Assembly (NCBI GenBank): GCA_963839215.1
Contig: CAWITZ010000006.1
Span: 46,482-110,481, forward strand
Length of the DNA stretch: 64,000 bases
Source: an uncultured Acidobacteriaceae bacterium
GTDB lineage: Bacteria; Acidobacteriota; Terriglobia; Terriglobales; Acidobacteriaceae
Reading direction: 5' to 3'
Shown here: positions 19,349-33,237 of the stretch, piece by piece
Numbering within the stretch: the stretch's first letter is position 1
Layout of the letters: the number at the start of each line of letters is the position of its first letter
Position numbers and translations under genes: made by a program
Notes under the pieces: model-generated
The model's database searches: none
Told to the model about the DNA's origin: nothing
What the model saw: the letters and a program-made list of their open reading frames with translations, nothing else

Positions 19349-22009
19349 TCAGCAGGGCGGTCTGATCTCGCTCGATGTGCCTCCGGCCGCGGGGATGTAG
19401 CACTTCTGGGTGTAGTCCATCACCATGCGGTCGGCGTTGAAGCGCCAGCCCAGCGTCTTGATTGTGCGCTTCATGCGCCGGATCCAGCCGCGGGGCAAGC
19501 CGTCGCGGTCGCGCTGGTAGTAGAGCGGAATCACATCGTCGCGGAGAACGCGATAGAGATCTTCGCCGTCGCGCATATCGTGCAGATCCATGTTGGAGTG
19601 GGTTCTGCCGGCACCGATTGCGAATCCGTTAAGGCCGTCGTAGGCTTCAGCCCACCAGCCGTCGAGCACTGAAAGATTCAAGCCGCCATTGAGCACAACC
19701 TTCTGCCCGCTGGTGCCGGATGCCTCAAGCGGACGGCGCGGGTTGTTGAGCCAGACGTCGACGCCCTGCACGAGAAAGCGGCCCACGTTGATGTCGTAGT
19801 CCTCAATGAAAACAAACTTGTCGGTAAATTCGGAGTCGCGCATCATCTCCGCAATCTGCTGCAGGACACGCTTGCCGGGTTCGTCGTGTGGGTGCGCCTT
19901 GCCGGCGAAGACGAATTGCACGGGACGCTTGGGATCGTTGACCATCTGCGCGAGGCGCTGGATATCGGCGAGGACGAGGTTGGCGCGCTTGTAGGTGGCG
20001 AAGCGGCGCGCGAAGCCGATCGTGAGCGCATCGGGTGAAAGAATGCGGCTGAGCTTCTGGAGCTGCGCCTGGTGCTCGGAGCGGCGCGTAGCCTGTTCGA
20101 CGGCGCGATAGCGAATGAAGTCGAGGAGGCGCGCCTTGAGGGACAGGTGCGTCTCCCAGAGCTCGCCGTCGTCGACGCTCTCAATGCCTTCCAAGGTGCG
20201 GGCGGCCCCGCTTCTTCCCTGCCAGCCGACGCCGAGGTGGCGGTCATAGAGACGCGCCATCTGCGGAGCCAGCCACGAGGGCACATGGACGCCGTTGGTG
20301 ATGTGGCCGATGGGCACCGCATCCTGCGGCTTGCCGGGATGGAGACCCCACCACATGGCGCGGGAGACCTCGCCGTGCAGCGACGAAACGGCGTTGGCGC
20401 GGCGCGAAAGCTTGAGGCCGAGCACGGTCATGCAGAAGGTTTCCTGCGTGTCTGAAGGCTGCACACGGCCAAAGCCCATGAGGTTTTCAAGCGAGATGCC
20501 GAGCTGGTCGCGCAGGGGCCCGAGGTGCTCTTCGATGAGGTCGACACTGAAGCGGTCGTGGCCGGCGGGAACGGGCGTGTGCGTGGTGAAGATGACTTCG
20601 CGGGGAATCATCTGCGCGGCGGTGATGAAGTCAATTCCCTCTTCGACCATGCGGGTGCGAATGGCCTCAAGCACCACGAAAACGCTATGGCCCTCGTTGA
20701 GGTGGAGCACGCCGGGCGCGATGCCCATCTTGCGCAGGGCGCGGTAACCGCCGACGCCGAGAAGCAGCTCCTGGCGGATGCGGGTGCGTCCGTCGCCGCC
20801 ATAGAGGCGCGAGGTGAGCTCTCGATCTTCCGGCGCGTTGCCTTCAACGTTCGAGTCAAGCAAAAGCAGGTCGCAACGGCCCACCTTAACGCGCCAGACC
20901 TTGGCGCGGATTATGCCGCCGCGGGTCTGGATTTCAACCTGCACGGGTTCGCCGGATTCACCGAGGGCCGGCTGCATTGCGCACTTGCTCACGTCGGTCT
21001 GCAGATACTCTTCCTGCTGCCAGCCGCTGCTGTCGAGGCGCTGCAGAAAGTAGCCCTGGCCGTAGAAGAGGCCGACGCCGACGAGGGGAATGTCGAGATC
21101 GGAGGCGCTTTTGATGTGATCGCCGGCCAGGATGCCGAGGCCGCCGGAGTAGATGGGCAGCGACTCGTGCAAGCCGAACTCCGCAGAGAAATAGGCGACC
21201 GGACGCGGACGCAGCACGCCGGCGTGCTCGGCGCCCCAGGTGTTGTCGGCGTTGAGGTACTCCTGCTGGCGGCGGAAACAGTAATTGATGCGGCTATGCA
21301 GCGAAAGCTCAGCGGCGCGACGTTCGATTTCGCCGAGAGGCAGCTCGTTGAGCAGAGCAATGGGATTCTGGTTCAATTCGCGCCAGCGTTTGGGATTGAG
21401 ATCACGGAAGAGCGCAACGCACTCCTGGTCCCAGCACCAGAGCAGATTGCGGGCAAGCGACCAGAGGCGTTCCTGCGCGGGCGCAATGAAGCGGTCGAGG
21501 GTGCGGGCTTCGCTGACGATAGGCCCAAGCTGATTGGCGGCTTCAACAAGCATGCGGATCTCGGAGTCGCGGAAGACGCGGGTCTCCTTGGTCTGGACGA
21601 CGAGAACGCCCTGCAGTATGCCGCGGTCAACCAGCGGAACGCCGAGGAAGGAGTGGTATTCCTCTTCGCCCGAGTCCTTGAAGAATTTGAAGCGGGGATG
21701 ATTGCGCGCATCATCGACGGCGACAGGCGTGACCTGCTCGGCGACAAGGCCCACGAGGCCTTCATTGAGCGGCATACGCAGTGTGCCGATGCTGCGAGGG
21801 TGCAGGCCGAGGGTGGCAGCGAGCACGAGGTTTGAGCGATCGGGCTCGAGCAGATAGGCAGAGCAGACATCGGTCCTGAAGCGCGATGCGATCAGGGCGA
21901 CGACGTTCATCAGCGTGTCGGCAGGTTTACCGCCCTCTTCAGTGAGATGCGTAACCTCATCGAGGGTGAGAACACGGCTGGCTTCGGTGTCTTCATAGGA
22001 CTGAGTCAT
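19349..22009 (-). CDS. glgP: Alpha-glucan (glycogen) phosphorylase with N-terminal GAF domain
   Basis: aa ~1-170 form a GAF domain. Then AYFSAEFGL, YSGGLGILAGDHIKSASDL, HLNEGH, FTTHTPVPAGHD, ITNGVH, FARRFATYKR, EASGTSGQK (PLP lysine), LSVLDGWW. Confidence 0.96.
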   Translation of the reverse strand: MTQSYEDTEASRVLTLDEVTHLTEEGGKPADTLMNVVALIASRFRTDVCSAYLLEPDRSNLVLAATLGLHPRSIGTLRMPLNEGLVGLVAEQVTPVAVDDARNHPRFKFFKDSGEEEYHSFLGVPLVDRGILQGVLVVQTKETRVFRDSEIRMLVEAANQLGPIVSEARTLDRFIAPAQERLWSLARNLLWCWDQECVALFRDLNPKRWRELNQNPIALLNELPLGEIERRAAELSLHSRINYCFRRQQEYLNADNTWGAEHAGVLRPRPVAYFSAEFGLHESLPIYSGGLGILAGDHIKSASDLDIPLVGVGLFYGQGYFLQRLDSSGWQQEEYLQTDVSKCAMQPALGESGEPVQVEIQTRGGIIRAKVWRVKVGRCDLLLLDSNVEGNAPEDRELTSRLYGGDGRTRIRQELLLGVGGYRALRKMGIAPGVLHLNEGHSVFVVLEAIRTRMVEEGIDFITAAQMIPREVIFTTHTPVPAGHDRFSVDLIEEHLGPLRDQLGISLENLMGFGRVQPSDTQETFCMTVLGLKLSRRANAVSSLHGEVSRAMWWGLHPGKPQDAVPIGHITNGVHVPSWLAPQMARLYDRHLGVGWQGRSGAARTLEGIESVDDGELWETHLSLKARLLDFIRYRAVEQATRRSEHQAQLQKLSRILSPDALTIGFARRFATYKRANLVLADIQRLAQMVNDPKRPVQFVFAGKAHPHDEPGKRVLQQIAEMMRDSEFTDKFVFIEDYDINVGRFLVQGVDVWLNNPRRPLEASGTSGQKVVLNGGLNLSVLDGWWAEAYDGLNGFAIGAGRTHSNMDLHDMRDGEDLYRVLRDDVIPLYYQRDRDGLPRGWIRRMKRTIKTLGWRFNADRMVMDYTQKCYIPAAGGTSSEIRPPC

Positions 22010-22232: not shown

Positions 22233-22964
22233 CTATTGGCGAACGCGCATTGCGGAAATTTCGCTGTGCGTGTGGCGCGCTGCGGTGCGCCGGTCGCGGA
22301 AGAGCTCGCCGTCGCCAAAGTGGACCTCGGCGGTGAATCCGGCGACGCCGAGAGTGCGCCAAAGATGGGGTAGAAAAGGCTCATCACCGAACCAGCAGAG
22401 ATCGCGCTCCCGGCTGGCGCCGGCAAACACGTAGCGCAATACTGCCGGCGTTACAGGAGCGCCGGCACGAACCGCAGGCTCAAAAAGCCACGAGTGGAAG
22501 CGGAGCACTGAGCTGCCGTCGGTGCTGGTTCCTTCCGGAAAGAAGAGAACCGGAACAGAGAGAGTGAGACGTTGCGCAATGAGGTCAGCAACTTCAGCGG
22601 CACTGGCCCGGCTGTTGCGATTGAGGAAAAGCGTTCCACCAGAACGCGCAGCCCAACCGAAGTAGGGCCATCGGCTGATCTCCTTTTTTGAGACAAAGAA
22701 GCAGGGGGTGGCAGCGGAGAGGATGAGGATGTCGAGGTAACTGAGGTGATTGGACACGATGATGCCACGATGCGGTGGTTGACCGGCAACGCGACGATAA
22801 CCGATGCCGAGACTGCGCAGAACAAGCCTGCATGAGTGATGGAGCCAGAGAGCCCGGCGCTCAAGCGTGAGCGGGCCCCGTGCACGGACCAGACCGTAGC
22901 GAAGAACGATGATCGCCAGAGCCGCACCCAGTGCGACAGTGCGCCAGGCCTTACGAAAGATCAT
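22233..22964 (-). CDS. Lysophospholipid/lyso-ornithine-lipid acyltransferase (OlsA/PlsC-like)
   Basis: VSNHLSYLD (HxxxxD), FVSKKEISRWP, FFPEGTSTDG. ATGA overlap with the upstream GNAT gene. Confidence 0.88.
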   Translation of the reverse strand: MIFRKAWRTVALGAALAIIVLRYGLVRARGPLTLERRALWLHHSCRLVLRSLGIGYRRVAGQPPHRGIIVSNHLSYLDILILSAATPCFFVSKKEISRWPYFGWAARSGGTLFLNRNSRASAAEVADLIAQRLTLSVPVLFFPEGTSTDGSSVLRFHSWLFEPAVRAGAPVTPAVLRYVFAGASRERDLCWFGDEPFLPHLWRTLGVAGFTAEVHFGDGELFRDRRTAARHTHSEISAMRVRQ

Positions 22965-23791
22965 GATGAGAGCGGGGCCAGGAAATGATTGCGCGCCGAA
23001 GCGGAGAGCATCTTGAGATCGAGCAAAGTAAGGAAATCGATGGTGCCGAAGTCTCGGTCCAAAGCTGGAGGAGCGCAGATGCGGGCGCCGATTGCCAGGT
23101 AGGTCTTGAGCAGCCGCGGTATGCGGGGCGACGGCGACGGCGAATCGCCGGCGATGTGTGACGGCCGTGCGTCACGCTCCGCTTGATCCAGCGGGCAGGC
23201 AAATGCTGCGGTTGGCTCGGTTGCAAACTCCGGCGAGACTCTGAATTGCTTCAACTGGCGATAGAGCTGCCAGCCCTCGGAAGGATCCTGTGAGTCGAGC
23301 GATGAGCAGCCCATGAGATAACGCAACCCCATGTCGTTCGCGTACTGTGCTATTCCGCGCCAGAGGAGGGTCAATACTTCAGGCGTACGATGTTCGCGGT
23401 CGATCGATGCCCGGCCCAACTCGAGGATGCCGGCACGAAGCGCTTCATAGGGAGCGAAATGGAATTCTTGCTCTGAATAGTAGCCAAGATTGCGCGCCGC
23501 AGTCTCGCCGGACTGCATGCGGTAGGTACCGACGACGCGCTGCGTGAGTTTTTCTTCGACGAGCAGATGCGCGCAAAAGAGGTCAAATTGATCGGTGTCG
23601 AGTCCGGTTTCATAGGAGCTTTCGAGGCCTTCACCCATCTCGACATTGAAGACGCGGAAACGCAGGCGGCAGGCTGCATCGCGATCTTCAACCGTCTGCG
23701 CCAGACGCAGACGGTACTTGACCACCTCGGCATGGATCGAAGGGCGTGCAGAAAGCGTCGGCAGAGACAAGGGAAAGGCCGGAGCGCGCAC
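22961..23791 (-). CDS. GNAT N-acyltransferase, OlsB-like (ornithine acyl-ACP N-acyltransferase); start uncertain
   Basis: RLRFRVFNVEMGEGL, DTDQFDLFCAHLLV, VVGTYRM, YYSEQEF, LELGRASIDREHR, YLMGCSSL, YLAIGARIC...DRDFGTIDF. The ORF extends to 23989; true start probably ~23790-23840. Confidence 0.82.
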   Translation of the reverse strand: MRAPAFPLSLPTLSARPSIHAEVVKYRLRLAQTVEDRDAACRLRFRVFNVEMGEGLESSYETGLDTDQFDLFCAHLLVEEKLTQRVVGTYRMQSGETAARNLGYYSEQEFHFAPYEALRAGILELGRASIDREHRTPEVLTLLWRGIAQYANDMGLRYLMGCSSLDSQDPSEGWQLYRQLKQFRVSPEFATEPTAAFACPLDQAERDARPSHIAGDSPSPSPRIPRLLKTYLAIGARICAPPALDRDFGTIDFLTLLDLKMLSASARNHFLAPLSS

Positions 23792-24001
23792 CGCCGATAC
23801 GGATGAAGAGGGACCGGTGGGATGAACCGGGGAAGCACCATAGCCTGTGTGTGCGATCACGGCAGCAGTATGCGCTGGAGATTGTAAGAGGACGGTGAAC
23901 CTGCTGCGAATTCGCTGCAAAAACAGAGCGCAAATTGTAACCCTGCTGCAACAAGAAGGCCCTCCAAAGTGGAGGGCCATGAGGAGCAAAGTAATTGCGG
24001 C

Positions 24002-25960: not shown

Positions 25961-27991
25961 CTACTCCGGGTGAATCCAGATGGCGTTGCCGCCGCCGCCG
26001 ACCATGTGCACATCGAGAACGGTGGTGCGATCGACTGACTGTCTGGTGAAGGTGGTGTGCGTGGCGTCGATGGCGGCGTCGGGAGCGTCGGCGTAGATTT
26101 CGGCGGTGTACTTTCCTTCGCCGAGGAAGCTGAGCGGAACCTTCTTATCGCGGGCGTCCCAGTTGGTGATGGAGCCGATGTACCAGTCTTTGCCGCTGCG
26201 GCGTGCGAGGGTGATGTTCTGCATGGGCAGACCGTCGAGGACGCGCACTTCGTCCCAGGAGGTGGGCACCTGTTTGATGAAGTCGAAGTCGCGCTGCCCG
26301 GCGTAGTGCTCGGGATAGTCGGAGACCATTTGCAGCGGGCTCTCAAGGATGACGTAAAGAGCGAGCTCATGTGCGCGGGTGTTGGGCGTCATGGGCATGT
26401 TGTTGCGCGGGACGAAGCCGGCGCGGGTGGCATTGCCGAAGGCGCCGGGTGTGTAGTCCATGGGGCCGGCGAGCATGCGGGTAAAGGGCAACGTGCTGTT
26501 GTGCACGGGCGTGGTGCGCGCAGACCACTTGAGATATTCCTTGCCCATGACGCCTTCGCGGGTCACGAGGTTGGGCCAGGTGCGGCGCAGACCATCGGGT
26601 TTGAAAGCGCCGTGGAAGTCGAGCATGAGGTGGTGCGCAGCGGCATCGGCAGCGACGCGGCGATACCAGTTGACCATCCACTGATCGTCGCGATTCATGA
26701 AGTCGATTTTGACGCCGGCGATGCCCCACTTCTCGAAGAGCGGGAAAGCCTGGTCCATGTACTTGTCGACCGAGGTCCAGTGGGCCCAGAGCCAGATGCG
26801 CACGTTTTTCTCTTTGGCATACCGCAGCAGCTCGGGCATGTCGATTTCGGGCGTGACCTGGGTGATGTCGGCGAGGGCGGCGTAGTCCTGGGGGCCATTG
26901 CGCACGGCTTTAGCCCAACCCGCGTCGATGAGCATGTAGCGGAAGCCGGATGCCGACGCGAAATCGATGTAGTGCTTCATGGTGGCGGTGTTCATGCCGG
27001 GCTTCACGCTGAGGGTGGGCGCGGCTTCGCCGGACCACCAGTCCCATGCAGATTTGCCGGGGAGAATCCACGAAGTGTCGGCAATTTTTGAAGGCGGATT
27101 GAGATTGAGGACGATGTTGGATTCGACGAGGCGGCCGGGCGCGTCGCCGATCATGAGCACGCGCCATGGAGTGGTGAGGGGCGCATCGGATTCAACGGCG
27201 ATGGATGGCTGGTCAGGATGCGGCGAGAGTTCGGCATGGAGCGCGAAGGGGCCCCTGGCTTTGCGCAGGTACATGCCGGCGTAGTTGTCGATGTCGGCCT
27301 CGGTGACGGCAACCCATCCGGCGCCGGGCACGTAGCCGAGCAGCGGTAGCGCGACGAGCCAGTCAGGGTGAATGCCGCTGACCTGGCGCGCCTGGTACTC
27401 GTCTTCGTAAGAGGACTGGAAGCCATCGACGATCAGCGGATAAAGCGTGGCGTCTTTGGCGTAGTTGAATTGCGTGAGCTCGTGCTCAATGCGGATCTTC
27501 TGAAACGCGGGCTGCGCGGGCAGGATGTAGCGGAAAGCGACGCCGTCGTCGTAGGCGCGTATTTCCAGAGAGAGCCTGCGCCCTCGCTCGTCCTCAAGAT
27601 CGACCAGCGCGGAGTTGTAGTGATCGCGCACGGAGCTGGTCTTGCCTACGGGGATGGTGTAGGTGTCGTCGGTTTGCCCGGTGTGGACGCTGACCTGACG
27701 CATACCTGGGCCGAGGGCCGGCTGGCCTTCGAGCTGGAGGCCGAGGATCGCTTCATCCATGAGCCATTTGCCGTGGAAGTCAACGGAGTAATGCATTCCG
27801 CTCACGGCGGGCTGAAGGGTCTGCGTGATGCTGGCATCGCCGAAGATAAAAGTGATTTGGCCGTCAGGCGAGGTAACGCGGAGGCGATTGTCGGCGGGCG
27901 CGGCGAGCGCGGTGGCGGCGGTGACGAGCGCAAGCGAGAGAGCGAGAGAACGAAACGAAGGCATGATTCCTCGAAGGGAGAAGCGACGCAT
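25961..27991 (-). CDS. Glycoside hydrolase family 97 (SusB-like), secreted
   Basis: Signal peptide, SPDGQI, RAYDDGVAFRY, PWRVLMIG, PGKSAWDWW, YMLIDAGW, GVKIDFM, DFHGAFKPDG, TREGVMGKE, GPMDYTPG, VPTSWDE. Confidence 0.95.
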   Translation of the reverse strand: MRRFSLRGIMPSFRSLALSLALVTAATALAAPADNRLRVTSPDGQITFIFGDASITQTLQPAVSGMHYSVDFHGKWLMDEAILGLQLEGQPALGPGMRQVSVHTGQTDDTYTIPVGKTSSVRDHYNSALVDLEDERGRRLSLEIRAYDDGVAFRYILPAQPAFQKIRIEHELTQFNYAKDATLYPLIVDGFQSSYEDEYQARQVSGIHPDWLVALPLLGYVPGAGWVAVTEADIDNYAGMYLRKARGPFALHAELSPHPDQPSIAVESDAPLTTPWRVLMIGDAPGRLVESNIVLNLNPPSKIADTSWILPGKSAWDWWSGEAAPTLSVKPGMNTATMKHYIDFASASGFRYMLIDAGWAKAVRNGPQDYAALADITQVTPEIDMPELLRYAKEKNVRIWLWAHWTSVDKYMDQAFPLFEKWGIAGVKIDFMNRDDQWMVNWYRRVAADAAAHHLMLDFHGAFKPDGLRRTWPNLVTREGVMGKEYLKWSARTTPVHNSTLPFTRMLAGPMDYTPGAFGNATRAGFVPRNNMPMTPNTRAHELALYVILESPLQMVSDYPEHYAGQRDFDFIKQVPTSWDEVRVLDGLPMQNITLARRSGKDWYIGSITNWDARDKKVPLSFLGEGKYTAEIYADAPDAAIDATHTTFTRQSVDRTTVLDVHMVGGGGNAIWIHPE

Positions 27992-29121
27992 CAGTTGGTG
28001 TAGACGCGCACGTAATTGACGAGCATTTCAACAGGAAAGGGCGTGGTGGCATTGGGTGGACCGGGCCAGTCGCCACCGATAGCGAGGTTGAGCAGGATGA
28101 AGTTGCTCTGGCCGGCGTCGAAGGGCCAGACGGCACCGGGAAGGCTCTTCATGTTGTCGGTTGTGTAGGTCGCGTAGGGATGCGCGGGATCATCGACGTA
28201 GTAGGCGACGCTGCCTTTGGACCAGATCATGCCGTAGGTATGCCACTGCGCGGCAGTTTGTCCCGCGGGGAAATGAAAAACGGTGCCGAGGCCGGTATTG
28301 CCGGTGAAGCCGGTGCCGTGAACGGAGCCTTCGTTCCAGTCCGGTGTGGCGGCGGCGTTGACGCGCTCAAGCACGTCCTGTTCGCCGGAGGCGGGCCAGT
28401 CGACGGTCGCAATGTTGTTGCCCAGAAGCCACGCCGCGGGCCAGAATCCCTGCGCCTCGGGAACCTGCGCGCGCACTTCAAAGCGACCGTACTGAAAGCT
28501 GAAGAGGCCCTGCGTCTTGAGCCGCGCCGAGGTGTAGACACCGGCGGAGGGCCGCTGGGCAACGATGTGCAGGAGTCCATCGGCACCGACGAAGACGCTG
28601 GGGCTGGTTGCGGAACAGGGTGCGGAATTGGAGCCCCAGGCGCAGTAGGTTTCGAGCTCGTGATTGCCAAAGCCGCTGTTGCCGGTGTCGTAGGTCCAGA
28701 TCGCGGGGTCGGGCGCAGCGTTCGAGCTGGTGGAGTTGGCGAACTCATCGGCCCAGACGAGCGTGCCGGAGGGAATGTTGAGCGTAAAGGTCTGGCTGGT
28801 GACCGAGCTGGGCGCGCCGCCGGATTTTGCTGCGATGGCCTTGACGGTGAGATTGCCAGCAACGAGAAAAGGCGCCTGATAGATCTGCGATGCGGTGGTG
28901 GGCTCGGAGCCATCGACCGTGTAGTAGATGACAGCGCCGGAGGTCCTGGTGGTGAGCGTAACGGTGACGGCGCCATTGAGCGCGGCTTTGGACGACATAG
29001 CTGGCGAGCCGGGCTGCGCAGGCGGCGATGAGCTTTCGGCAGTCGCTGTTGATGCAGCGCCGCAACCACCGCAGAGCAGGACTGCAGAGAAAAAGAAAAC
29101 CGCGAGCATCGTCTTTCTCAC
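27991..29121 (-). CDS. GH16 beta-glucanase lipoprotein with Fn3-associated/CHB_HEX_C-like domain
   Basis: Lipobox-like LLCGGC, IYYTVDGSEPT...Y..PF domain, WADEF, GNHELETY, YTSARLKT, GFWPAAWLLG, catalytic EQDVLE (ExDxxE), LNLAIGGDWPG. TGATG overlap with GH97. Confidence 0.9.
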   Translation of the reverse strand: MRKTMLAVFFFSAVLLCGGCGAASTATAESSSPPAQPGSPAMSSKAALNGAVTVTLTTRTSGAVIYYTVDGSEPTTASQIYQAPFLVAGNLTVKAIAAKSGGAPSSVTSQTFTLNIPSGTLVWADEFANSTSSNAAPDPAIWTYDTGNSGFGNHELETYCAWGSNSAPCSATSPSVFVGADGLLHIVAQRPSAGVYTSARLKTQGLFSFQYGRFEVRAQVPEAQGFWPAAWLLGNNIATVDWPASGEQDVLERVNAAATPDWNEGSVHGTGFTGNTGLGTVFHFPAGQTAAQWHTYGMIWSKGSVAYYVDDPAHPYATYTTDNMKSLPGAVWPFDAGQSNFILLNLAIGGDWPGPPNATTPFPVEMLVNYVRVYTN

Positions 29122-29276
29122 GTTTTGACCCTTTGAGCCAGGTTCAGATGTGCGTTGAGCCGCCGTCCAATCTAAACACCGCGTCTTTTGCCCCGTCAAT
29201 CACGGTGGACCGATTCACACCTGGGCGAATCTCAATCACTCCGGACCGAATCGGGCGGCGCGGCCATCTGCCGGTT

Positions 29277-31987
<2,711 letters not shown>

Positions 31988-31991
<4 letters not shown>

Positions 31992-33112
31992 GCGCTGACC
32001 TCGGCTTCAGAAGCGGCCGCCGGTTCGGGTTGCCACCTGCGGGGCGGCTTGTCTTCGAGAGCTTTGGCGATGGCCGCGATGTGGTCTGGCGTATTGCCGC
32101 AGCAACCGCCGGCGATGTTGATGAGACCCGCGCCAGCGAAATCGCCGAGGAAGCGGGCCATATCCTGCGGGCCAAGATCGAAGCCGGTGGCAGCGAGAGG
32201 GTTGGGCAGACCGGCATTGGGATAGCAGGAGACGGCGACATCTGCTTTCTCAGCCAGTTCGGAAAGAAACGGGTACATGAGGTCTGGCCCGAGCGAGCAG
32301 TTGAGGCCAATCGAGAGCGGCTTGACGTGGCTGACCGCGTTCCAGAAAGCTTCGGTAGTTTGCGCGGAGATGAGGGTTTCGCCGCCGCGACCGACTGCGG
32401 CGGAAATCATGACGGGCACTTCCCTGCCGTCCTGATCGAAAACTTCGCGGATAGCGACGAGCGCGGCCTTGGCGTTGAGCGAGTCGAAGATGGTTTCGAC
32501 AAGCAGTGTATCGACGCCGCCGGCAATGAGCGCGCGTACCTGGTGGGCATAGGCGGATTTGACCTGGTCAAAGGTGACGACGCGGAAGCCTGGGTCGTCA
32601 GCGTCGGGCGAGTTGGAGAGCGAAACGGTGAGGGGCCCGATTGACCCGGCGACAAAGCGAGGACGGCCAGTGTCCGCGGTGAAGCGGTCGGCCCACTCGC
32701 GGCACTGGCGCGCCGACTGCTCGTTGATTTCCCATGCAAGATCGTTGAGAAACGGCGTCTCAAGTATCTGCTGATAAAACGCGGGATCTTTGCGGCCGCC
32801 GTGCTCGCGGGGATCGTCTACGAAGAATTCGCTCTGCGAAATGGAGGTTGCACCAAAGGTGTTGGTTTCGATGATGTCGGCGCCAGCCTCGAGAAAGCGG
32901 CGGTGAATGTCGCCGATCATTTTCGGCTGTGTGAGCGAGAAGAGATCGCCGTTGTTAAGCAGGTCCTTCTTCGCGTCTTTGAAGCGCAGGCCGCGCATGT
33001 CGGCTTCTTTCATGCCGTAGGTGCGGATGGTGGTGCCCATGGCGCCATCGATGATGGCGATGCGTTGCTCGAGGATCTTCTGAAGAGGATGCTGCTGATG
33101 CGCGTTAGCCAT
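31988..33112 (-). CDS. metH: Methionine synthase, N-terminal homocysteine-binding domain (split metH)
   Basis: [70 protein letters not shown] overlap with the C-terminal part. Confidence 0.95.
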
Positions 33113-33237
33113 TGGTATCTGTCGCCTCAACGTTGAATCGCGTTGACTGCCTCGGACCACTCTGCCCACCTTTCAGCATAGACGGAAGGCAGGCGGGCGC
33201 CCAGAAATTGCGTGGGTTGAAGGGGAAAGCCGGTGGA

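What the first reader, a model, noticed from the sequence alone, without database searches (positions are those of the whole stretch)
19349..22009. Glycogen phosphorylase with a PtsP/EI-Ntr-type GAF sensor: possible direct nitrogen-status control of glycogen breakdown
Seen: an uninterrupted 886-aa ORF with ~170 extra N-terminal residues (nt ~21500-22009) ahead of an intact phosphorylase (PLP motif EASGTSGQK). The extension contains TDVCSAYL, LAATLGL, EGLVGLV, DARNHPRFKF, EEEYHSFLGVP and GVLVVQ. Known: as I recall it, the E. coli PtsP (EI-Ntr) GAF has TEVCSVYL, LMATRGL, EGIVGLV, DAQKHPSFKY, FLGVP and GVLVVQ, and EI-Ntr activity responds to glutamine/2-oxoglutarate through this GAF. Inference: this is a one-component C/N-sensing glycogen phosphorylase that bypasses the PTS/HPr regulation described for enteric GlgP. 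The fusion may exist in other genomes, but I know of no characterisation.
Basis: partly seen in the sequence, partly recalled or inferred. Interest (0 to 1): 0.7.

Follow-up and report, generated by a model that had tools for sequence, protein, structure and literature searches.

The report
Glycogen phosphorylase with PtsP-derived GAF sensor
A soil acidobacterium that has no phosphotransferase system carries a glycogen-degrading enzyme fused to the sensor domain that other bacteria use on their nitrogen-PTS enzyme, which suggests, but does not prove, that a small metabolite directly switches glycogen breakdown.

Summary
Window 19349-22009 (-) is one 886-aa ORF: N-terminal helix plus GAF (aa ~12-170), a 12-residue linker, an alpha-helical domain (DUF3417, 180-284) and an intact GT35 core (TIGR02094, 825 bits; PLP Lys770).

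The GAF is of the PtsP/EI-Ntr type:
- It hits the PtsP model at E 1.4e-34.
- It is 40% identical to E. coli PtsP without gaps.
- Its best PDB hits are PtsP GAF crystal structures.
- In a rooted tree the phosphorylase GAFs form a 99/97 clade nested inside a grade of PtsP GAFs. The nearest are from Planctomycetota.

The catalytic part is a 'clade 2' phosphorylase like Segatella copri GP, whose helical domain drives oligomerisation.

The genome (Terracidiphilus-like, 96.9% complete) has no EI, HPr/NPr or EIIA-Ntr.

The fusion is patchy. It occurs in 6 of 201 sampled Acidobacteriota genomes. It is also full-length (aa 1-300, 72-85% identity) in all 80 genome loci kept from the species-representative genome collection, which include cultured Occallatibacter savannae AB23.

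GAF dN/dS (0.11) is close to that of the catalytic core (0.09), and the linker is nearly invariant.

Ligand identity (Gln/2-OG) and any effect on activity remain untested inference.

I found no paper describing this fusion. The scan noted it six times before on other genomes, none followed up. I rate it a new variant of a known kind, of moderate interest.

The parts
19349..22009 (-). Whole gene: GAF-DUF3417-GT35 alpha-glucan (glycogen) phosphorylase, 886 aa plus stop
   Evidence: Single ORF. Full-length homologues of 885-887 aa occur in many genomes. A GAGGGA Shine-Dalgarno-like motif lies 6 nt before the ATG, and a 223-nt intergenic gap lies upstream.
21500..21976 (-). PtsP/EI-Ntr-type N-terminal sensor module (aa 12-170): leading helix plus GAF domain (Pfam GAF 31-162)
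   Evidence: Pfam GAF/GAF_2/GAF_3. NF008283 PtsP positions 20-175, E 1.4e-34. PDB 3ci6 and 3trc PtsP GAFs, E 1.6e-27 and 1.5e-26. E. coli PtsP 40% identical. Tree. 31 signature positions shared with PtsP GAFs. dN/dS 0.108.
21464..21499 (-). Linker aa 171-182 (LDRFIAPAQERL) joining the last GAF helix to the first helix of the alpha-helical domain
   Evidence: 83-100% identical across fusions that are only 72-83% identical in the flanking domains. Similarity to PtsP runs through it, up to aa ~186. It has low pLDDT in the AF2 model.
21158..21472 (-). Alpha-helical domain (DUF3417, aa 180-284)
   Evidence: PF11897, 88 bits. It aligns to the alpha-helical domain of Segatella copri GP, which builds that enzyme's pentamer. 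GAF-less homologues start here.
19394..21199 (-). GT35 catalytic core (TIGR02094, aa 271-872)
   Evidence: TIGR02094, 824.7 bits. ScGP 9L6I, E 1.2e-166. Catalytic residues are conserved: H477, R668, R669, K674, K770 (invariant).
19700..19726 (-). PLP-lysine motif EASGTSGQK (aa 762-770; K770 = ScGP K609)
   Evidence: Alignment to 9L6I. Invariant in 32 fusions.

Best explanation
The gene encodes a 'clade 2' (DUF3417/TIGR02094-type) glycogen/alpha-glucan phosphorylase. It has acquired, as one block, the whole N-terminal sensor module (leading helix, GAF and linker) of the nitrogen-PTS enzyme EI-Ntr (PtsP).

Shown:
- the domain architecture and an intact catalytic site;
- descent of the GAF from PtsP-type GAFs;
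- strong purifying selection on the GAF, and even stronger conservation of the linker;
- absence of any PTS in the genome.

Inferred:
- The GAF acts as a built-in allosteric sensor.
- Binding of a small metabolite is passed through the conserved linker into the alpha-helical domain, which in the solved relative ScGP sets the oligomeric state and so substrate access. This would switch glycogen phosphorolysis.
- By homology with EI-Ntr, the leading candidate ligands are glutamine and/or 2-oxoglutarate, which would couple glycogen mobilisation to nitrogen status.

My odds are about 0.55-0.6 that the GAF is a ligand-responsive regulator of the enzyme, and about 0.35 that the ligand is Gln/2-OG.
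For: Architecture and intact enzyme.

PtsP origin of the GAF:
- NF008283 E 1.4e-34.
- PDB PtsP GAFs 3ci6 and 3trc are the best hits.
- E. coli PtsP is 40% identical, E 2e-29.
- Full PtsP proteins carry GAFs 50-54% identical to this one.
- In the IQ-TREE tree the fusion GAFs form a 99/97 clade nested within PtsP GAFs.
- 31 shared signature positions.

Functional constraint: dN/dS is 0.108 for the GAF against 0.086 for the catalytic core; the linker is 83-100% identical; protein length is fixed at 885-887 aa in most loci.

GAF-dependent glutamine control of EI-Ntr in E. coli, S. meliloti and Caulobacter: PMC4848567.

Oligomer-based allostery through the helical domain in the closest solved relative: PMC12912991.

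The genome has no EI, HPr or EIIA-Ntr, so the GAF cannot be feeding a phosphorelay. glgC is present.
Against: - No ligand-binding or activity data exist for this protein or any fusion relative.
- No pocket residues are defined for PtsP GAFs, so conservation of a 'Gln/2-OG pocket' cannot be scored.
- The Caulobacter L83Q position could not be mapped, because the alignment is only an image.
- GAFs of the same clade also sit on a hybrid histidine kinase (P0272), so the module is a portable sensor whose ligand may differ between hosts.
- The AF2 model was too poor (pLDDT 62.5) to show a GAF-catalytic interface.
- The gene neighbourhood is not conserved and gives no nitrogen link.
- The ScGP distal AMP-site arginine is conserved (R744), so AMP may be the main effector regardless of the GAF.
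Confidence: 0.55

Rival explanations
1. The GAF is a real allosteric sensor, but for a ligand unrelated to nitrogen status. The ligand could be a carbon or energy metabolite, a nucleotide or a second messenger. The PtsP ancestry would then say nothing about the present ligand.
For: GAF domains bind very diverse ligands (established knowledge). The same GAF clade is found on a hybrid histidine kinase and on proteins of unknown architecture. Six positions are fixed in the fusions but rare in PtsP GAFs: N60, A64, D128, R129, T170, F174. Weak but significant similarity to a cGMP-PDE GAF (5w10, E 7e-6).
Against: 31 signature positions, including all the conserved PtsP blocks, are retained. The nearest relatives outside the fusion clade are true PtsP proteins at 50-54% identity. 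cNMP-type GAFs are only distant hits.
Confidence: 0.28
2. The GAF is a ligand-independent structural module. [quoted passage not shown]
For: GAF domains often dimerise (for example PDE2A GAF-A; established knowledge). This protein and its nearest GAF-less relatives lack the ~140-aa C-terminal domain seen in ScGP and in many acidobacterial homologues. Oligomeric state governs activity in clade 2 phosphorylases.
Against: The nearest GAF-less homologues (52% identical, ~715 aa) also lack the C-terminal domain and manage without a GAF. Conservation of the PtsP signature blocks, including positions not expected to matter for a simple dimer interface, and a dN/dS equal to that of the catalytic core suggest more than a scaffold.
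Confidence: 0.14
3. The fusion is an artefact: a mis-assembly, a mis-called start or a decaying gene, and not a functional protein.
For: None beyond the general caution that the window probably comes from a metagenome-assembled genome. Many fragmentary or frameshifted copies exist in metagenome protein sets.
Against: The same uninterrupted architecture occurs in more than 120 protein clusters, in all 80 genome loci kept from the species-representative collection, including a cultured isolate, and in 6 independent genomes of the phylum sample. Length is fixed at ~886 aa and dN/dS is ~0.1 throughout.
Confidence: 0.01

Closest known systems
Segatella copri glycogen phosphorylase ScGP, 'clade 2 GP' (PDB 9L6I, 9U3A, 9UTG; Shobu et al. 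PNAS 2026, PMC12912991)
   Same: Our aa 184-874 align to ScGP 31-713 at E 1.2e-166. The alpha-helical domain (DUF3417) and the GT35 core are shared. Catalytic residues are conserved: H316, R507, R508, K513 and PLP K609 correspond to H477, R668, R669, K674 and K770. The distal AMP-site R583 corresponds to R744.
   Different: ScGP has only a 23-residue N-terminal loop where this protein has a 178-aa PtsP-type GAF module. ScGP has a C-terminal beta-sheet domain that this protein lacks. ScGP regulation (AMP-driven pentamer to decamer) is experimentally shown; nothing is shown here.
EI-Ntr / PtsP (E. coli b2829; GAF crystal structures 3ci6, 3trc)
   Same: The N-terminal helix, GAF and linker (our aa ~12-186) are homologous to PtsP 1-175: 40% identity to E. 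coli and 50-54% to planctomycete PtsP. All conserved sequence blocks are shared. In PtsP this GAF mediates glutamine (and, in E. coli, 2-oxoglutarate) control of the attached enzyme (PMC4848567).
   Different: The output domain is a glycogen phosphorylase, not a PEP-dependent phosphotransferase. There are no PEP-utiliser domains, and the genome has no NPr or EIIA-Ntr partners. The whole protein scores 119 bits against a PtsP cut-off of 583.
E. coli GlgP regulated by HPr (clade 1 GP)
   Same: Same reaction class (GT35, PLP-dependent phosphorolysis of alpha-1,4-glucan). It is an example of PTS-linked control of glycogen breakdown through oligomeric state (PMC11046441).
   Different: Only distant homology (TIGR02093 82 bits against a cut-off of 553; PRK14986 54 bits). 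Regulation in E. coli works in trans through a PTS protein. Here a PTS-derived sensor domain is fused in cis, in a PTS-less genome.
Chlamydomonas alpha-amylase AMA2 with N-terminal ACT domain activated by glutamine (PMC11190351)
   Same: Conceptual precedent: a small amino-acid-sensing domain fused to the N-terminus of a glucan-degrading enzyme, giving direct nitrogen-metabolite control of storage-glucan breakdown. That paper's domain list also includes ACT-phosphorylase fusions.
   Different: The sensor fold (ACT, not GAF), the enzyme class (GH13 amylase) and the kingdom all differ. There is experimental proof there and none here.

Membership tests
GT35 alpha-glucan phosphorylase, TIGR02094 subfamily ('clade 2 GP', ScGP-like) | Whole-protein score above the curated TIGR02094 cut-off | tested here: met
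   824.7 bits against a cut-off of 191.7, aa 271-872 covering model positions 1-599 of 600.
GT35 alpha-glucan phosphorylase, TIGR02094 subfamily ('clade 2 GP', ScGP-like) | PLP-binding lysine and phosphate/substrate residues (ScGP K609, H316, R507, R508, K513) | tested here: met
   K770, H477, R668, R669 and K674 align to these residues and are invariant in 32 fusion proteins.
GT35 alpha-glucan phosphorylase, TIGR02094 subfamily ('clade 2 GP', ScGP-like) | N-terminal alpha-helical domain (DUF3417) preceding the core | tested here: met
   PF11897, 88.1 bits against a cut-off of 25, aa 180-284.
GT35 alpha-glucan phosphorylase, TIGR02094 subfamily ('clade 2 GP', ScGP-like) | C-terminal beta-sheet domain as in ScGP (residues ~714-852) | tested here: not met
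   The protein ends 12 aa after the end of the alignment to ScGP 713. About half of the acidobacterial homologues have a ~140-aa C-terminal extension and this lineage does not. This feature is not universal in the subfamily.
GT35 alpha-glucan phosphorylase, TIGR02094 subfamily ('clade 2 GP', ScGP-like) | Phosphorolytic activity on glycogen/maltodextrin | not testable with these tools
   Needs an enzyme assay.
GAF domain (Pfam PF01590 / PF13185) | Score above the gathering threshold, and GAF secondary-structure topology | tested here: met
   PF01590 56.2 bits (cut-off 22.4) and PF13185 49.7 bits (cut-off 28.6). The AF2 model shows a helix / beta-sheet / C-terminal long helix pattern with pLDDT 75-88 over aa 30-165.
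PtsP / EI-Ntr (NF008283) | N-terminal GAF of the PtsP lineage | tested here: met
   Model positions 20-175, E 1.4e-34. Tree nesting within PtsP GAFs, with supports 98/94, 95/85, 98/95 and 99/97.
PtsP / EI-Ntr (NF008283) | PEP-utilising N, mobile and C domains; whole-protein score of at least 583 bits | tested here: not met
   No PEP-utiliser domains. 119.4 bits against a cut-off of 583. The protein is not a PtsP; it only shares the sensor module.
PtsP / EI-Ntr (NF008283) | GAF binds glutamine / 2-oxoglutarate | not testable with these tools
   No defined pocket residues. The Caulobacter L83Q position could not be mapped.
Cyclic-nucleotide-binding GAF (PDE / cyclase type) | Close similarity to cNMP-binding GAFs | tested here: not met
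   The best cNMP-type hit, 5w10, has E 7e-6 over 80 aa. PDE2A and PDE5 have E 0.2-0.7, against 1e-27 for PtsP GAFs. The NKFDE motif was not formally scored.

The most novel reading that the evidence does not exclude
The PtsP GAF is a portable glutamine/2-oxoglutarate sensor. In a PTS-less lineage of Terriglobia it has been rewired from a phosphorelay onto the oligomerisation (alpha-helical) domain of a clade 2 glycogen phosphorylase. The result would be a one-protein C/N integrator in which nitrogen status directly gates glycogen mobilisation by changing the enzyme's oligomeric state. It would also give a simple enzymatic read-out for solving how PtsP-type GAFs recognise their ligands.
Probability: 0.3. 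Interest if true: 0.7.

Novelty: new variant of a known kind. Interest (0 to 1): 0.55.

Why it matters
Bacterial glycogen control is usually placed at synthesis (GlgC allostery). Control of degradation is poorly understood, and a 2026 structural study has only just shown that non-canonical phosphorylases are regulated through oligomeric state.

A phosphorylase carrying a sensor domain derived from the nitrogen-PTS would be a direct, testable link between nitrogen status and carbon-reserve use. It occurs in abundant soil and peat Acidobacteriota, which live under chronic C/N imbalance.

It would also offer a tractable system for finding what PtsP-type GAFs bind and how the signal leaves the domain, because it has one soluble enzyme and a colorimetric assay. 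That question is still structurally unresolved for EI-Ntr.

If the GAF proves to be only a scaffold, the finding reduces to an ordinary domain-architecture variant.

Tried and rejected
1. AlphaFold2 of the full protein with a 32-sequence alignment gave mean pLDDT 62.5 and pTM 0.56. Only the GAF and parts of the core were confident, so I drew no conclusion on GAF-core contacts and ran no fold search.
2. Alignment A1 of 50%-cluster representatives was unusable, because many metagenome fragments are frameshifted. I rebuilt from genome loci (A2, A3).
3. I tried to map the Caulobacter EI-Ntr L83Q glutamine-blind mutation onto this GAF. The paper's alignment is an image and I held no Caulobacter sequence.
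4. Gene-neighbourhood analysis found no conserved partners. The OlsA/OlsB-like genes upstream are shared by only 2 of 70 loci, and no cluster occurs in more than 9 of 70.
Proteobacterial PtsP sampling in the tree is therefore thin: E. coli plus two PDB sequences.
6. I considered a strict 'either fusion or PtsP' complementarity and rejected it. Four of the 6 fusion genomes lack EI and two (G179, G028) have a GAF-less EI-like enzyme. A further bin outside that sample (G201) has both the fusion and a GAF-PtsP.
7. I considered mis-assembly or pseudogene and rejected it.
Full report
**Observation.** Window 19349-22009 on the minus strand is one uninterrupted ORF of 886 aa. Pfam finds GAF (31-162, E 7e-15), DUF3417 (180-284) and Phosphorylase. 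NCBIfam places aa 271-872 in TIGR02094 'alpha-glucan family phosphorylase' at 824.7 bits (cut-off 191.7). It also matches aa 31-186 to positions 20-175 of the PtsP model NF008283 at E 1.4e-34. A GAGGGA Shine-Dalgarno-like motif precedes the ATG, and a 223-nt gap separates the gene from the upstream one.

**Is the GAF of the PtsP type?**
The two proteins align at 40% identity over 140 residues without a gap, E 2e-29.
- The best solved-structure hits of aa 1-182 are two PtsP GAF domains (3ci6 at 1.6e-27, 3trc at 1.5e-26). cNMP-type GAFs are far weaker, at 7e-6 or worse.
- In a search of 1.84 billion cluster representatives with aa 1-290, the closest non-fusion GAFs (about 50% identity) sit in proteins with the full PtsP architecture (P0292, P0299, P0254, P0330). 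One sits in a hybrid histidine kinase, P0272.
- The PtsP clade nearest to our GAF (P0254 and relatives, about 54% identical) is named Gemmataceae, Isosphaeraceae or Planctomycetaceae where a name exists.
- I built an IQ-TREE (LG+C20) tree of 40 GAF domains rooted on distant GAFs. All phosphorylase GAFs, the kinase GAFs and four fragments form one clade with support 99/97. That clade is nested inside successive PtsP lineages with supports 98/95, 95/85, 97/82 and 98/94. The gammaproteobacterial PtsP GAFs (E. coli, 3ci6, 3trc) branch deepest.
- Thirty-one positions are identical in at least 90% of fusion GAFs and at least 85% of PtsP GAFs, covering every conserved PtsP block. Similarity also covers the helix before the GAF and the linker after it. 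The whole PtsP sensor module was therefore transferred.

**What the enzyme part is.** Aa 184-874 align to Segatella copri glycogen phosphorylase (PDB 9L6I and others) at E 1.2e-166. Classical GlgP, MalP and muscle phosphorylases reach only about 1e-14. ScGP is the type example of 'clade 2' phosphorylases (PMC12912991). It lacks the tower helix. Its alpha-helical domain assembles a pentamer, and AMP at a distal site drives decamer formation that blocks access of glycogen. In our protein the catalytic residues and the PLP lysine are conserved: H477, R668, R669, K674 and K770. So is the distal AMP-site arginine, R744 = ScGP R583. The ScGP C-terminal beta-sheet domain is absent. The GAF is joined by a 12-residue linker directly to the alpha-helical (DUF3417) domain.

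**Genome context.**
- The window lies in a 4.12-Mb, 96.9%-complete genome. Close homologues are named Terracidiphilus or Acidobacteriaceae.
- No EI/PtsP was found. The best hit of the PtsP model in the genome is the phosphorylase GAF itself. No HPr/NPr (PF00381) and no EIIA-Ntr (PF00359) were found either.
- No other GAF of this subfamily exists in the genome; the next best is at E ~1e-6.
- A second, short (587-aa) TIGR02094 phosphorylase without GAF or DUF3417 lies on another contig.
- glgC is present at 469 bits. Canonical glgA and glgB models do not reach their cut-offs.
- The neighbours are unrelated to glycogen or nitrogen signalling and are not conserved among related loci: a glycerate-kinase-like gene, an OlsA/OlsB-like acyltransferase pair, a PLP enzyme and GH97.

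**Distribution.**
- In an even sample of 201 Acidobacteriota genomes, 105 have a long-form homologue but only 6 carry the GAF. Five are in the window's family, in 3 genera, and one is in another family at 64% identity.
- Two of the four sampled genomes of the window's own genus lack the fusion.
- The nearest GAF-less homologues are 52% identical and begin at the DUF3417 domain.
- In the same sample most genomes have a GAF-less EI and none has a GAF-bearing PtsP.
- A scan of GTDB species-representative genomes kept its best 80 loci. All 80 encode the fusion N-terminus over aa 1-300 at 72-85% identity. Nearly all are labelled Acidobacteriaceae, Terracidiphilus, Terriglobia or Bryobacterales, and one is the cultured Occallatibacter savannae AB23.
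- One bin labelled Thermodesulfobacteriota carries both the fusion and a true GAF-PtsP.
- The large protein collection holds more than 120 clusters of full-length fusions at 84-94% identity.

The fusion is therefore real, lineage-restricted and patchy.

**Selection.** Across 12 full-length orthologues aligned codon by codon, median dN/dS is 0.108 for the GAF, 0.092 for the helical domain and 0.086 for the core. dS is about 1.5, near saturation, so these values are rough. The linker (171-182) is 83-100% identical where the flanking domains are 72-83%. Protein length is 885-887 aa in most loci. A domain that only came along for the ride would not be kept this way.

**Mechanism.** The architecture, the ancestry, the constraint and the absence of a PTS are shown. 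The following is inferred. The GAF binds a small metabolite. The change passes through the conserved linker to the alpha-helical domain, which in ScGP sets the oligomer, and this alters substrate access or catalysis. In EI-Ntr of E. coli, S. meliloti and Caulobacter the GAF is needed for glutamine control of the attached enzyme (PMC4848567). Glutamine and 2-oxoglutarate are therefore the first ligands to test. I put about 0.55-0.6 on ligand-responsive regulation and about 0.35 on Gln/2-OG specifically.

The rivals are:
- a different ligand (0.28), supported by the same GAF clade on a histidine kinase and by six fusion-specific fixed positions;
- a ligand-independent oligomerisation or scaffold role (0.14);
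- an artefact (0.01).

**Comparison with what is known.** The protein is a member of the TIGR02094/clade 2 phosphorylases and carries a bona fide GAF. It is not a PtsP: it scores 119 bits against a cut-off of 583 and has no PEP-utiliser domains. The E. coli HPr-GlgP interaction (PMC11046441) concerns a distantly related clade 1 enzyme. A conceptual precedent is the glutamine-activated, ACT-domain alpha-amylase of Chlamydomonas (PMC11190351).

**Novelty.** Full-text searches for GAF together with glucan or glycogen phosphorylase, and for DUF3417, found no description of this fusion. A 2024 review of prokaryotic alpha-glucan enzymes does not mention GAF in the 300,000 characters held. Public annotation calls these proteins only 'alpha-glucan family phosphorylase' or 'starch phosphorylase'. 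First readers of this scan noted the same fusion six times on other genomes, with no follow-up on record.

**Verdict.** This is a new variant of a known kind, of moderate interest (0.55). Simple biochemical tests would be decisive.

Noticed in passing
G000 contig C9:89733-91385 (outside the window; L009:1450-3210:-): A second, short (587-aa) TIGR02094 phosphorylase without GAF or DUF3417, next to a galactokinase. In 8 of 70 related loci the equivalent short paralogue lies convergently just downstream of the GAF-phosphorylase (for example L053 5683-6900).
   Followed up: partly
whole genome G000: No EI/PtsP, HPr/NPr or EIIA-Ntr was detected in a 96.9%-complete genome. Most sampled Acidobacteriota have a GAF-less EI, and most of the window's own family lacks EI. 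None of the 201 sampled genomes has a GAF-bearing PtsP.
   Followed up: partly
proteins P0272 / P0354 (metagenome): A hybrid histidine kinase (GAF-HisKA-HATPase-REC) carries a GAF that falls inside the phosphorylase-GAF clade. The same sensor module has therefore been reused on a two-component kinase.
   Followed up: partly
L118 / G201 (MAG labelled Thermodesulfobacteriota); L137:1-2028:-: This bin holds an acidobacterial-type GAF-phosphorylase (74% identity over aa 2-300 to ours) and also a true GAF-PtsP. Either the label is wrong, the bin is mixed, or this is a genuine co-occurrence.
   Followed up: no
window 21464-21499 (-), aa 171-182: The linker between the GAF and the helical domain (LDRFIAPAQERL) is more conserved (83-100%) than either flanking domain (72-83%).
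   Followed up: partly
window 19778-19780 (-), R744: The arginine that binds AMP at the distal, decamer-inducing site of Segatella copri GP (R583) is conserved and invariant in the fusions. AMP regulation may therefore coexist with the GAF.
   Followed up: no
window 22233-23989 (-): An overlapping pair of genes directly upstream: an Acyltransferase (PF01553) and a GNAT-like Acetyltransf_5. It resembles an OlsA/OlsB ornithine-lipid synthesis pair and is shared by only 2 of 70 related loci.
   Followed up: no
window 25961-29199 (-): A GH97 alpha-glucosidase-like gene followed by a GH16 protein with chitobiase/Fn3-associated domains. These are extracellular glycan-degradation genes near the phosphorylase but probably unrelated to it.
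   Followed up: no
window 29280-33169 (-): Methionine synthase appears split into two adjacent ORFs: a homocysteine S-methyltransferase domain (31991-33169), then pterin-binding, B12-binding and activation domains (29280-31991).
   Followed up: no
G000 C5:98550-99671; C9:242974-243903; C6:358967-359917: glgC is clearly present (469 bits). The glgA and glgB models only give sub-threshold hits, so glycogen synthesis here may use non-canonical synthase and branching enzymes.
   Followed up: no
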